The translations under genes and the position numbers were made by a program. From the NCBI RefSeq assembly GCF_006345805.1, contig NC_043005.1, forward strand, positions 109,639,382 through 109,703,381: a DNA stretch of 64,000 bases, read 5' to 3'. The stretch comes from Octopus sinensis. Its lineage: Eukaryota. The stretch's first letter is position 1; each line of letters begins with the position of its first letter. This document shows, piece by piece, positions 25,651 to 58,998 of the stretch. The notes below the pieces were generated by a model. The model did not search any database, was not told where the DNA came from, and was given only the letters and a program-made list of their open reading frames with translations.

Positions 25651-25790
25651 ATATGAGTGTGTATGTATATATATATATATAGCTATATATATATATATTT
25701 ATATTATAGCGGACTTCTATATCTTTCGATGTTACTTGATTGAATATATAAGAGGTAAGTTTTTCCTAGCATTTTCAGATTTATAGGAAT

Positions 25791-25849
25791 ATTATGTCGA
25801 TAAAGGAAATGAACTTTACGATTCTAATCCAGAAACGATCGTCCATAAT
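25791..25849 (+). ncRNA. Degenerate type I hammerhead ribozyme
   Basis: Stem I attatg/cataat, GAAA, palindromic stem III acgatcgt, GTC site; the CUGAnGA box is mutated to TCGATAA. Confidence 0.5.
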
Positions 25850-26279
25850 TAATCCAGTAGACTGTGTGGGTTTGTTGTTTTCCTTTCTTCTTTTACCATA
25901 TATGAGTTACAAAGGCTGTTGTTTGCAGAGACTTATTTTTGTAGTAATAGTATAGTAGCCCGTTGACTGCTATTTCTAATATTTTTGGTATGTGGTTTAA
26001 GCAGCTTGTTGCAAAAAACCCTTTATTATAATTATATGAATTTTTACCGATTATGGTCCTTTCGATACCGAAATACTACTAGGTGAAATTTATTGATTTT
26101 ATTAAATTAATTATATTTCACCCTTTATCTGTATATAATATATATATATATTATATATATATATATATAATATATATATATATATATGGATGTATGGATG
26201 GATCTATGTGTGTGTATATATATATATGCATGTGTTTGTGTGTGTGTGTGTGTAAACTTCTTTCTATCCATCCTCCTCT

Positions 26280-26978
26280 CAGCCCTTCTAAAACACTTGT
26301 GTCCCACTCTTGTTATGAGAAATGTTAAACATTTGGTTGCTGAGTTCCTGCACATCTATTGAAATGCTTGTTGAGTTGAAGTTTTCTTGTGTTTGGATTA
26401 TCTATTTGTTGTCGGTGAATTGTCATGTATTTTCTGAGTGAATGTTTGTTTGGCCAATATAATTCTTGCTACAGCCACAGCACATTATGCTATAAATTGT
26501 TTTCTGAAAGGTAAAAGAAGTCATTTTATATTTTAAAAATTTTACCATTTTTCAAGCAGATCTTGGGGCCTTCAGTTATACTAATACAAATTACACGATT
26601 TGATCTTCAACGTTTTTTTAATTGTTGGGTTTTGTGTAATGTTGGTAAATAATTGAGCACTTGATAAAAGTTTTATATTTTTTTTAATGTGTGCAGCTGC
26701 TTTTTGCTTTTAATTAGTTTTTCTAAGATTTTTCTAATTCTGTGATTAACAGCAGTAAATTTTGACTAATTACATCAAAATCCCCAATATTCTTAGTGTT
26801 ATAAATTGAAATTTATGGTAAAACATTTACTTCTGTTTTTTGTTTTTACAGTTAATAAATCATTGATATTAATTGCCTCTGCTCTTTCAATTGCACTGTT
26901 AATTAGAGCAGATAACATCTTCCATTCAGAATATCTTTTCATTACTTTAGTTTTTTCTTCCAGGCATTTGGGTTTGAT
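26280..26978 (-). pseudogene. Penelope-like element linker plus GIY-YIG endonuclease, decayed
   Basis: LKNGKIFKI...SENNL...CCGCSKNYIGQT...MTIHRQQIDNPNTRKLQLNKHFNRCA across frameshifts. Confidence 0.8.
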
Positions 26979-26989
26979 ATATATTTGAT

Positions 26990-27300
26990 GTGGAGGCGCA
27001 ATGGCCCAGTGGTTAGGGCAGCGGACTCACAGTCATAGGATCACGGTTTCGATTCCTAGACTAGGCATTGTGAGTGTTTATTGAGCTAAAACACCTAAAG
27101 CTCCACGAGGCTCTGGCACGGGGTGGTGACAATCCCTGCTGTACTCTTTCGCTGCAACTTTCTCTCATTCTTTCTTCTGTTGGCCTGCTCGCTTAGCCAG
27201 CGGGGTGGCATCATTTAAAGGCTAAAACAAGGTGAAACGCATTGTGACCAGCGATGTGTAGCAACATCTGATAGCCCGGTCGGTCACGGTGATCACGGTG
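26990..27300 (+). mobile_element. SINE family C, tail type 2
   Basis: 11-bp TSD atatatttgat (26979-26989, 27301-27311); tail ends cacggtgatcacggtg. Confidence 0.9.
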
Positions 27301-27670
27301 ATATATTTGATACGTTGATATGCTATGGAATGAAGGGTTACAAAGAGAGAGAAGAATCCAGAAGAGAACAGGTTCCTTGCAGGGGAGAAATTGCTTATCT
27401 AGTCACACGAGAGAAGATGGGATGGAAGTGACAAGGGAAGTAACATGTGGTTGGGTAGATTCTAAGTTTGTGGGACAGTTATAGTAAAAGGTGGGGAAGG
27501 AGAGACACATAGCAATACAAAATAACTAATTTGGAGGTTTTGGAGGTTAATCAAACAATAATTTGGGTGGAGAGATCAGCATTATATATGAAAGATGGAT
27601 AACAAATGAAATGGTTCCATGCTGTAAGAGGGTTACGTGGTATCAGCTAGTGAAGTACGTTTAATTACAA

Positions 27671-28225
27671 CATCATCATCATCATCATCATCATCGTTTA
27701 ACGTCCGTTTTCCATGCTAGTGTGGGTTGGACGGTTCGATCGGGGTCTGTCAAGCCAGGAGGCTGCACCAGGCTTCAGTCTGATCTGGCAGCGTTTCTAC
27801 AACGGGATACCCTTCCTAATGCCAACCACACCGTGAGTGTAGTGGGTGTGTTTTATGTGCCACCGGCACAGGGGCCAGAGGAGGCTGGCAAACGGCCACA
27901 ATCGGTTGGTACTTTTATGTGTCACTGACACAGACGCCAGTCAGGTGGTGCTGGCATCTGCCATGTTCGGATGCCACTTTTTACATGTCACCAGCACGGG
28001 GATCTTAACTACAATTTCCATTTGATTTTTATTTTGATGTTGGTGTTAACGTACTTGACTCAGTAGGTTTCCTCAAGAAGAGCAGGTCACTCTACGATCC
28101 AAGGTTAGCACAGCAGGCTGTCCTGCGAGCCATGAACTCACTTTATTTGTTGGGTCTTCACAGTCACAACATATCTCAGAGGTCTCGGTCTTCGTCATTT
28201 CCTCTGTGAGGCCCTACATGCCACG
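27671..28225 (-). mobile_element. RTE-type LINE 3' end (family E) including ORF C-terminus
   Basis: GLTEEMT... C-terminal peptide near 28170-28215, then tandem units and (GAT)n tail. Confidence 0.75.
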
Positions 28226-28589
28226 ATTTACATAGTATATGGATTATACTTAACACCAGATAATCTTTTGGTCTGTATGTTAAGTCTTGGGCCCTGTTAT
28301 AGTGGTTGCACTTTTGGCTTATTTCTCTTTTGTTAATATAACCTAGTGCTGCATTTTCATACCGAGTTGCACTTCTATTACCACTGTAACTGTTGTAGTT
28401 ATCATTGCTGCCCTAATCCACTCCATCTCCACTGCTACTGTTAAAGCAATATGTCCTGTTATTAAATTTTTAAACAGTTAGGCAGTAACTCTGAATAAGA
28501 CATGGCATGGGCTGCAGCAATCCTACACAAGCCAGCATGGATGTAAAGGACAATATTGATGTTGATAATATGGGTGATATACAAATATG

Positions 28590-28605
28590 TGTGTATGTAT
28601 GTATG

Positions 28606-57520: not shown

Positions 57521-57774
57521 GAAGAATTTATTTCTTCCAGATTTAAAAAAAAAAATGGAATAGGGCAACAAAAATAACACCAGCAGCAACAATAGTAATA
57601 ATTAAAACAACCAAGGTAACAACTAGAATGATAATAACAACAACAATTGTAGCAAGAAAAACAACAAGACACTAACAACTGGCAATTATTGCAAGAATAT
57701 CTGATGTAATGAGAGAATGGGGAAGTGTCTGTGTGGCTAAGTAGCATTGAACTAGATTAAAAAATATGTAATGA

Positions 57775-58045
57775 CCAGCAGTATCACCCAGCGTTGCTCG
57801 GGTTTGTTTCGACCCTTTAGAATTGGAATTTTTGAAAAGTAAAAAAAAGCACCTTTTTGATGTAAATAATTTTTGGTGTTAACATGATCAGATTTGAATT
57901 TTTTCTTCTACGGAAGGAAGAACACGCCTTCTTCTATCATACTCTCAATTTTGGCCAACTTGCACCGTAGGGTCTCGGAGGAGATAGTTTTAGTTGAAGG
58001 CTACCAAACCTGCCATACACAGACAACTTCAACTTTATATATAGA
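57775..58045 (-). mobile_element. Non-autonomous Helitron (same family as 38015, internally deleted)
   Basis: 5' TCTATATATAAAG; 3' hairpin cccgagcaacgctggg plus CTGG. Confidence 0.75.
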
Positions 58046-58709
58046 GAGAGATTAGAAAAATAAAAGCCACAGCTTTCATCATGGAGGTGAAGCTATCACT
58101 ACTAGATGTATTAAGAAATATATTTTAAATTTCTACAATATAAATGGTAAATAACATTGCCTCATGTATTTTCTGAAAAAATATACAACATTGAGCCTAC
58201 ACTAGCTCTGAAAAATATTTGGAGACACAATAATGTAACAAGCTATTCAACCTATGTCAAGCTACACCATTTCAACTACACAGGAAAAAATTTCCCTGAT
58301 ACGCATAAGAACTCCACCCAAACACTTCTCTCTTAGAAAACCAAGAGTGTGAAAATAGTCCAGGCGCTTAGCATACAAACAGGTGACTCTACAGCTGACA
58401 TTAATTTCTATTGCAAAAACGCCAATAGGATATTAATAATTGATACAGCAATACTAATTGACTGTAAAGTTGAGCAGAATTTAGATTAAAAACTTAGGAA
58501 TTACACAAAGTTAGCTACAGAATGAAAAATATTATGGCTGTTAAGGAATGTGTTCAGCATAACAGTTGTGTTTGGTGCTACACAAATATGGAAAGACTTG
58601 ACAGATCATCAATAATGTTAGACAAAGGCATGTTCCAGCAAATTGCAATTCTGGCTTCTGTAAATATTGTTCAGGTATTCTTACTCACTCATTGTTAACC
58701 TTTATTATA

Positions 58710-58749
<40 letters not shown>

Positions 58750-58846
58750 GGAGTAAACACATAAATGTGAAACAAGGTGGAAAAAAGAGTACTCAAATAC
58801 CAGTGGTAGAGTAATATGCTTTATTTTAAGCAGCAGAAAATTCAAC

Positions 58847-58893
58847 AAAATCTGTTACTCTGAGTTTCTCGTTGCCGTTCATCAGACAGTTTT
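58847..58893 (-). ncRNA. Minimal type I hammerhead ribozyme (mirror copy)
   Basis: Reverse complement of 58902-58948. Confidence 0.7.
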
Positions 58894-58901
58894 TGCTAGA
58901 A

Positions 58902-58948
58902 AAAACTGTCTGATGAACGGCAACGAGAAACTCAGAGTAACAGATTTT
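58902..58948 (+). ncRNA. Minimal type I hammerhead ribozyme
   Basis: ctgt CTGATGA acg-gcaa-cga GAAA ctcaga GTA acag; stem III actc-a-gagt. Confidence 0.7.
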
Positions 58949-58998
58949 GTTGAATTTTCTGCTGCTTAAAATAAAGTATATAATATATATATATATAT

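What the first reader, a model, noticed from the sequence alone, without database searches (positions are those of the whole stretch)
25700..58981. Divergent non-coding (TA)n-embedded elements share a hammerhead > box > terminal-hairpin architecture
Seen: three elements with otherwise unalignable sequence show the same module order on the ribozyme strand. First is a type I hammerhead with palindromic stem III (25791-25849 +, 33640-33745 -, 48673-48745 -). Second is a TTGRCTGYTATTTCTA-like box ~65-115 nt downstream (25963-25978, 33560-33575, 48582-48597; also 34031-34046 and an orphan at 19776-19791). Third is a GGT...ACCCT hairpin whose stem sequence varies but still pairs (26082-26124, 33433-33480, 48905-48948), preceded by CTAGGCCRCT in two copies. 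All abut (TA)n. A fourth family (58748-58981) has a minimal hammerhead and a looser ccactGGT...ACCT end. Known: Penelope-like elements carry type I hammerheads with palindromic stem III in their pLTRs, and retrozymes are non-autonomous hammerhead retroelements. Inference: this is a ribozyme-processed, probably Penelope-mobilised, TA-targeting system with conserved cis signals that I do not know to be described.
Basis: partly seen in the sequence, partly recalled or inferred. Interest (0 to 1): 0.9.

Follow-up and report, generated by a model that had tools for sequence, protein, structure and literature searches.

The report
Penelope-type retrozymes sharing a folded tail
These repeats are copies of many high-copy, non-coding elements that sit in TA microsatellites and carry a hammerhead-ribozyme motif followed by a shared, predicted RNA fold; they likely spread by borrowing the enzyme of Penelope-like jumping genes, and the fold would mark the two places where copying starts, which is a testable lead on how these enzymes pick their template.

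Summary
The motifs are real and are not a local oddity. Elements A-D are copies of high-copy families. The box occurs 34,869 times genome-wide against 8 for the control. A, B and C form head-to-tail units of 440-590 bp and head-to-head insertions in (TA)n. Each family has two 3' ends about 67-97 nt apart, and 13 of 13 resolvable head-to-head insertions use one end on each side. That is the known Penelope-like-element (PLE) 'tail', so these are non-LTR retrozymes, a described class. An earlier scan note found PLE-end hammerheads on other DNA.

New here: at least eight poorly alignable families share box > long-range helix enclosing end 1 > GGT..ACCCT hairpin > end 2. Covariation is significant in one group and weak in the other.

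Corrections: copy C is permuted (hairpin upstream of the hammerhead). A's core is mutated in this copy (family core UUGAUAA). D lacks the box. The 'orphan' box is a truncated insertion of another family. About 14 of 100 boxes lie in an unrelated repeat. No autonomous partner was proven, and cleavage and expression are untested. Verdict: new variant of a known kind, interest 0.5.

The parts
25705..26135 (+). Element A: one 5'-truncated unit of a 555-bp tandem family, ending at end 2, between (TA)n tracts 25662-25708 and 26132-26187
   Evidence: (2462 first-look candidates)
25791..25849 (+). A hammerhead, type I, stem III ACGATCGT, predicted cut after GTC 25843; core TCGATAA here, TTGATAA (U3-A8) in the family
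25963..25978 (+). A box, 3' arm of a local hairpin
25984..26073 (+). A long-range helix (25984-25992 with 26064-26073) enclosing an inner GG..ACCCT hairpin (25994-26022) and end 1 (about 26037)
26082..26124 (+). A terminal GGT..ACCCT hairpin, about 10 nt before end 2
33420..33839 (-). Element B long arm (ends at end 2): hammerhead 33640-33745 (predicted cut after GTA 33648), box 33560-33575, helix 33555-33563 with 33476-33483, end-1 site 33522, terminal hairpin 33434-33470
   Evidence: (2033 candidates)
33836..34085 (+). Element B short inverted arm (ends at end 1): second hammerhead 33858-33964, box 34031-34046
48521..49052 (-). Element C, permuted partial tandem of a ~460-bp unit: box remnant 49038-49052, end-1 site 48985, helix arm 48944-48954, hairpin 48906-48938, end-2 site 48891, hammerhead 48673-48745, degenerate box 48582-48597, end 1 at 48521 into (TA)n
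   Evidence: (2848 candidates)
58748..58981 (.). Element D: 234-bp fold-back with a minimal hammerhead on each strand (58906-58943 +, 58852-58889 -), end 2 left, end 1 right, CTACCACTGGTA linker 58798-58809; no box
   Evidence: (763 candidates, 40 copies >=96% identical)
19708..19979 (-). Family F head-to-head insertion truncated before the hammerhead: box 19776-19791, end 1 at about 19708, inverted end-2 piece around 19848-19890
19623..19706 (-). Internally deleted copy of family D beside the F insertion

Best explanation
These are non-coding, hammerhead-motif-bearing repeat families with the tandem, head-to-head and two-ended insertion pattern of Penelope-like elements, likely copied into (TA)n by a borrowed PLE reverse transcriptase-endonuclease, and their shared box/helix/hairpin domain is predicted to be the RNA signal that would set its two start sites. 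Steps. (1) Shown: 440-590-bp units lie in tandem or as truncated pieces in (TA)n. (2) Inferred: tandem transcripts are cut by the type I hammerheads acting as dimers through the palindromic stem III, giving monomers and perhaps circles. (3) Predicted, with covariation support: 3' of the cut the RNA folds into a helix that starts at the box, encloses end 1 and closes just before the terminal GGT..ACCCT hairpin. (4) Inferred from PLE biochemistry: the enzyme cuts both strands of (TA)n and starts reverse transcription inside the RNA at end 1 on one strand and end 2 on the other. The two cDNAs join by template switching or microhomology. (5) Shown: the product, a head-to-head insertion with one short and one long end. 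The partner is not identified; TA-targeting Hydra-clade PLEs (tails of about 84 and 155 nt here) fit the geometry better than the Neptune-like family measured (tail about 40 nt).
For: High-copy families with tandem units of 486, 555, 460, 543, 588 and 560 bp. Two discrete ends per family: A q330-333/q428-431, B q279/q376, C q70/q154-162, D q84/q150. Among the first 100 exact boxes on contig C1, the distance to (TA)n is 37-59 nt in 39, 140-163 nt in 23, other in 5, none within 260 nt in 33. 13 of 13 resolvable head-to-head insertions (of 16) pair end 1 with end 2. Hammerhead upstream of the box in 25 of 65 untruncated cases vs 9 of 3000 control windows; stem-III half-site 36 of 65 vs 36 of 3000. 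A's stem III varies but stays palindromic (GATC 18, GTAC 13). B/C/E alignment: 6 of 17 pairs with both-side changes, covariation score reached by 0 of 500 shuffles. Helix pair probabilities 0.87-1.0 in whole natural units of A, B and C. A model built from B/C/E weakly finds the A-like group in register (E 0.02-0.8) and two more families. Intact Neptune-like and Hydra-like PLE ORFs of 778-908 aa, flanked by (TA)n where the ends were read, are abundant. Literature: tail at the 3' end of one inverted pLTR (PMC3846280); tail equals the span between two internal RT start sites in an AC-rich stem loop downstream of the hammerhead, both strands cut (PMC11167929); retrozymes derive from pLTRs (bioRxiv 10.64898/2026.07.22.740005).
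Against: No autonomous element with a clear box was found. The 3' UTRs of Neptune-like and other GIY-YIG loci shown had none. 12 Hydra 5' regions scored at most 4.1 bits. One Hydra family has a box-like word of 4.8-7.4 bits against 14-28 for true boxes, and a Neptune-like UTR scored 7.5. A visual likeness of the hairpin linker to Hydra tails failed a PWM test. Covariation in the A-like group is not significant (58 of 500 shuffles), and rows within a family are related. About 14 of 100 boxes sit in an older repeat without hammerhead or TA ends, so the box is not exclusive. The hammerhead descriptor was relaxed after a stricter one gave 10 of 65 vs 3 of 2000, and tandem units are not independent. 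Among non-inverted insertions ending at end 1, only 3 of 10 checkable ones show an inverted end-2 piece. Hammerhead cleavage was dispensable for insertion in vitro for the anole PLE (PMC11167929), and 8 of 9 Xenopus retrozyme dimers did not cleave (bioRxiv 2026).
Confidence: 0.7

Rival explanations
1. Same PLE-mobilised retrozymes, but the box and helices are only inherited from one ancestral pLTR (or serve transcription, splicing or RNA stability) and do not set the RT start sites.
For: The box also occurs in an unrelated-looking older repeat. Covariation is weak in the A-like group. D spreads with no box. Autonomous PLEs here have two ends without the box. A GTAAGT donor-like word lies about 40 nt before A's hammerhead.
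Against: The box is the best-kept sequence between families that do not otherwise align. It lies 105-120 nt before the terminal hairpin in A and B. Both-side changes keep the helices in B/C/E.
Confidence: 0.2
2. They are mobilised by a non-PLE retrotransposon (a microsatellite-targeting LINE), like SINEs, and the hammerheads are passengers.
For: No autonomous PLE sharing the box was found. Active LINE families are reported in Octopus vulgaris (PMC13282606, passages).
Against: No poly(A) or simple-repeat 3' tail of their own. Two internal 3' ends and head-to-head insertions with the tail on one side are PLE hallmarks (PMC3846280, PMC8557442). The same geometry is seen in PLE ORF-bearing families here.
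Confidence: 0.05
3. They are DNA-level elements (fold-back/MITE or Helitron-like: the antisense strand reads hairpin-then-CTAG), with tandem arrays grown by recombination.
For: D is a near-identical palindrome with the same centre in 24 of 24 parsed copies, allowing minor variants. B and C show hairpin plus CTAG on the opposite strand.
Against: The elements run on well past the CTAG, which is an arm of the long helix. 5' truncation points vary while 3' ends are fixed. The ends are asymmetric. Another D copy has a different centre.
Confidence: 0.05

Closest known systems
Non-LTR retrozymes of metazoans (Cervera & de la Pena 2020, PMC7229834, passages; Li, Clavereau & Pollet 2026, bioRxiv 10.64898/2026.07.22.740005, parts 1-3 of 5 read)
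   Same: Non-coding tandem units of a few hundred bp, low GC, one type I hammerhead per unit, monomers to multimers, proposed PLE origin.
   Different: Here: strict (TA)n flanks, head-to-head insertions with two defined ends, units of 440-590 bp, and a 3' fold shared by many families. The passages read describe no such shared domain, and the preprint sampled no cephalopod. circRNA is not shown here.
pLTR and 'tail' of EN+ Penelope-like elements (Arkhipova et al. 2013, PMC3846280, passages; Craig et al. 2021, PMC8557442, passages and section 11)
   Same: Partial tandems, inverted 5'-truncated copy, tail on one side only, hammerhead in the repeat, (TA)n targeting as in the Hydra clade, Naiads and (microsatellite bias) Neptune.
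   Different: Tail is 67-97 nt rather than 30-40 nt; no ORF; box and enclosing helix not described in what I read.
Poseidon PAc of Anolis carolinensis (Frangieh et al. 2024, PMC11167929, parts 1-2 of 4 read)
   Same: Two internal RT start sites downstream of the hammerhead at an AC-rich stem loop define the tail; AT-rich target cut on both strands.
   Different: There the sites lie within the ORF and close together. Here they lie in non-coding RNA about 95 nt apart, each after an ACCCT-ending hairpin in the A-like group.
Minimal and U3-A8 hammerheads of PLEs (Cervera & de la Pena 2014, PMC4209133, parts 1-2 of 4 read)
   Same: Palindromic stem III, bulged base at stem II, U3-A8 core variant (family A and Neptune-like families here), opposite-strand pairs 100-700 bp apart.
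   Different: B and C carry long stem II inserts (about 40-68 nt) and longer stems I and III than the minimal form.
Non-autonomous Chlamys elements such as MRC1 (PMC8557442, passage)
   Same: Non-autonomous PLE derivatives with pLTRs and head-to-tail multimers, similar to partners at the 3' end.
   Different: Mostly lack hammerheads; there the autonomous partners are known, here they are not.

Membership tests
Non-LTR retrozyme | Short non-coding tandem repeat units | tested here: met
   Periods 486 (B), 555 (A), 460 (C), 543-588 (others); no tandem copy of D seen
Non-LTR retrozyme | Type I hammerhead in each unit | tested here: met
   B core CTGATGA 139 of 139 parsed; C 29 intact cores; A TTGATAA 32; D 61 of 63. 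The window's A copy is mutated. Several A-like subfamilies have degenerate cores.
Non-LTR retrozyme | Self-cleavage | not testable with these tools
   Needs in vitro transcription
Non-LTR retrozyme | Expressed as circular RNA | tested here: inconclusive
   No listed holder is on record as RNA; only contigs could be laid
Non-LTR retrozyme | No LTR, PBS, PPT or ORF | tested here: met
   Unit sequences read directly; tblastn found PLE ORFs only beyond (TA)n or deletion junctions. PBS/PPT judged by eye.
Non-autonomous Penelope-like element | Partial tandems and inverted 5'-truncated copy | tested here: met
Non-autonomous Penelope-like element | Optional 3' tail on one side of the insertion | tested here: met
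   13 of 13 resolvable head-to-head insertions; tail longer than the canonical 30-40 nt
Non-autonomous Penelope-like element | Microsatellite (TA)n target | tested here: met
   (TA)n within 200 nt of the box in 66 of 100 vs 467 of 2000 control
Non-autonomous Penelope-like element | Target-site duplication | not testable with these tools
   Cannot be read inside (TA)n tracts
Non-autonomous Penelope-like element | Sequence shared with the pLTR of an autonomous RT + GIY-YIG partner | tested here: inconclusive
   None found among families sampled; weak box-like word in one Hydra family. Sampling limited to top-scoring copies.
Helitron / MITE | Element ends at hairpin + CTRR, or symmetric terminal inverted repeats | tested here: not met
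   CTAG is internal; ends are asymmetric

The most novel reading that the evidence does not exclude
The box, the helix enclosing end 1 and the terminal GGT..ACCCT hairpin form a conserved RNA scaffold that a dimeric Penelope-type reverse transcriptase binds, so that it starts at two fixed sites, one on each cut strand of a (TA)n target (asymmetric twin priming). It would be the first cis-recognition structure shared by a whole superfamily of retrozymes, tens of thousands of copies strong, and a natural mutational map of template selection by a telomerase-related RT.
Probability: 0.35. Interest if true: 0.75.

Novelty: new variant of a known kind. Interest (0 to 1): 0.5.

Why it matters
How Penelope-like RTs, the closest retroelement relatives of telomerase, recognise their RNA and start copying inside it is barely known: one in vitro study, one family. 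Here at least eight diverged non-coding families keep the same fold around the two start sites, so evolution has marked which bases and pairs matter. The RNAs are short (about 200 nt from box to end 2) and young intact PLE ORFs exist in the same genome, so binding, start-site and twin-priming tests are direct. It also flags a large repeat class (about 35,000 exact boxes, most of them in these families) that automated annotation may be filing as unclassified SINEs or unknown repeats. That last point is an inference.

Tried and rejected
Rfam: the window scan gave microsatellite-driven miRNA noise; nothing reached a gathering score on six family loci. The local repeat finder was swamped by microsatellites. 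An apparent link of A to a PLE ORF (L035) was rejected because (TA)n separates them. A B-to-Hydra junction in L015 is tail-to-tail and reads as a deletion, so it is not evidence. Partner hunt: Neptune-like families and Hydra families gave no proven partner. Two of the 30 GIY-YIG loci looked like host genes and were left out of the tblastn queries. RNA: no RNA holder listed. Four runs laid were contigs only; one 478-nt permuted unit-length contig fits a tandem or a circle alike, so it is no evidence either way. Pair probabilities of zero were an indexing error, corrected. The attempt to align the older box-bearing repeat found only 9 pieces, mostly one 107-bp tandem. Literature searches; none listed a paper that, in the parts I read, describes this box or fold. 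Repbase and Dfam could not be searched. The supplements of the bioRxiv preprint and the supplementary figures of PMC11167929 (RT start-site stem loop; text search empty) were not seen and may bear on novelty.
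Full report
Setting. The window is G000:C9:109639382-109703381 in a 2.72-Gb, microsatellite-rich genome. 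From its size and from recalled repeat families I take it to be an octopus; this is recall and inference, not tested.

Checking the observation. All quoted stretches exist. B and C have full type I hammerhead anatomy and D has a minimal one on each strand. A has stems I-III but its core reads TCGATAA. Across 30 partly overlapping family loci the core is TTGATAA 32 times and TCGATAA twice. That is the U3-A8 variant reported for Schistosoma PLEs (PMC4209133), with a further change in this copy. The boxes at 25963, 33560, 34031 and 19776 are exact; C's differs at four positions. In C the hairpin precedes the hammerhead, so the claimed order holds only cyclically. Rfam gives no hit at gathering level.

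These are large families. Own-genome searches gave 2033 (B), 2462 (A), 2848 (C) and 763 (D) first-look candidates, of which 40 each were scored. A, B and C occur as head-to-tail units of 555, 486 and about 460 bp; related families have periods of 543-588 bp. The window's C is one such partial tandem. Many insertions are head-to-head, like B and D in the window. 5' truncation points vary, but each family runs into (TA)n at two fixed places: A q330-333 and q428-431, B q279 and q376, C q70 and q154-162, D q84 and q150.

Unbiased test. The exact box occurs 34,869 times against 8 for the reversed control. I fetched all of the first 100 places on contig C1, which fall in 62 clusters. Distance to the next (TA)n was 37-59 nt in 39, 140-163 nt in 23, other in 5, and none within 260 nt in 33; 66 of 100 were within 200 nt against 467 of 2000 control positions. 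Of 65 boxes not truncated upstream, a strict descriptor found a hammerhead in 10 (control 3 of 2000). After allowing G-U pairs in stem III it found 25 (control 9 of 3000), and the stem-III half-site in 36 (control 36 of 3000). Tandem units are not independent and B-type copies make up 32 of the 100. Of 16 head-to-head clusters, 13 could be read at both sides and all 13 had end 1 on one side and end 2 on the other. Of the 46 other clusters, 25 ended at end 1, 9 at end 2 and 12 at neither. By eye about 14 of the 100 boxes lie in an older repeat with no hammerhead or TA ends.

The shared fold. Besides A, B and C, I met F (the window's 'orphan'), E, two more families found by a covariance model (read), and several A-like subfamilies: at least eight in all. 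In all that I aligned, a helix begins at or just after the box, encloses an inner hairpin and end 1, and closes 5-10 nt before the GGT..ACCCT hairpin, which is followed by 10-20 AT-rich bases and end 2. RNAalifold found the helix unaided in both groups. For ten B/C/E copies, 6 of 17 pairs change on both sides and none of 500 shuffles reaches the covariation score. For thirteen A-like copies 90% of cells pair, but covariation is not significant (58 of 500). Rows were hand-picked from 26 cluster representatives plus six further loci, and are related within families. In whole natural units of A, B and C the helix has pair probabilities of 0.87-1.0, linear or circular. The B/C/E model hits A-like copies in register only weakly (E 0.02-0.8). 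The two linker words occur 6,384 and 6,018 times against 4 and 16 for controls. D shares the linker word (13 bits) but not the box.

Partner. The genome holds young Neptune-like PLEs (811-850-aa RT + GIY-YIG frames) with U3-A8 hammerheads and, in the family measured, a tail of about 40 nt. It also holds Hydra-clade PLEs (DKT and CxCX5C motifs as defined in PMC8557442; open frames up to 908 aa) with tails of about 84 and 155 nt. None shown carried a clear box. One Hydra family has a box-like word 87 nt after its cut site (56 nt in one deleted copy) and a predicted enclosing helix and GG..CCCT hairpin. Its score (4.8-7.4 bits, p 0.007-0.064 per copy) was matched by a Neptune-like UTR. A likeness of linkers failed a PWM test. 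The partner stays open; Hydra is favoured on geometry only.

Mechanism. [quoted passage not shown] In the anole PLE the tail is the span between two internal RT start sites in an AC-rich stem loop downstream of the hammerhead, and both DNA strands are cut (PMC11167929). I therefore read ends 1 and 2 as RT start sites, one per cut strand of (TA)n, and the shared fold as the signal that places them. The ends and their polarity are shown; the fold is predicted with partial covariation; cleavage, circles, protein binding and twin priming are inferred. Against the cleavage step: it was dispensable in vitro for the anole element, and 8 of 9 Xenopus retrozyme dimers did not cleave. Sequencing runs settled nothing.

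Novelty. Non-LTR retrozymes, their PLE origin, min-hammerheads, tails and TA targeting are all in print. An earlier scan note (e1-7882047) reached the same general reading on another genome; I did not test it. Nine literature searches listed no paper that, in the parts read, describes this box, the enclosing helix or a 95-nt tail. The text of a 2026 Octopus vulgaris repeat annotation has no occurrence of 'ribozyme' and lists 893 recently active unclassified SINE families; of PMC8967140 I saw only Penelope passages. Repbase and Dfam were out of reach. Verdict: new variant of a known kind, interest 0.5.

Noticed in passing
window 26334-26912 (-) and 18725-18868 (-): Degenerate fragments of Neptune-like PLE ORFs (GIY-YIG region), the first just downstream of element A on the opposite strand.
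   Followed up: partly
window 42085-42100 (-); L188, L223, L225-L227: The same 16-nt box lies in an older, abundant repeat with no hammerhead or (TA)n ends, including a 107-bp tandem form. Whether it donated the box or shares a binding factor is unexplained.
   Followed up: partly
window 58748-58981; L091-L120, L249: D's fold-back junction is the same in 24 of 24 parsed copies apart from small variants, so the palindrome is either re-mobilised whole or joins repeatedly at a self-complementary word; L249 has another centre.
   Followed up: partly
window 25753-25760; upstream of hammerheads in L121, L127, L189, L203: A splice-donor-like word (G|GTAAGT type) lies about 40-50 nt before the hammerhead in A and several A-like families, recalling the pLTR intron of Drosophila Penelope.
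   Followed up: no
L181-L184: A young Neptune-like PLE family has a second, upstream ORF of about 390 aa with no Pfam match that overlaps the RT-EN frame.
   Followed up: partly
L273-L294: Hydra-clade PLEs are abundant and young in this genome (1525 first-look candidates for one N-terminus; open frames of 778-908 aa), with tails of about 84 and 155 nt, longer than the 30-40 nt usually quoted.
   Followed up: partly
L168, L247, L251 3' UTRs: Autonomous Neptune-like families here use the U3-A8 hammerhead core, as family A does.
   Followed up: partly
window 42445-43527: Tandem array of six 184-bp copies of a common dispersed repeat.
   Followed up: no
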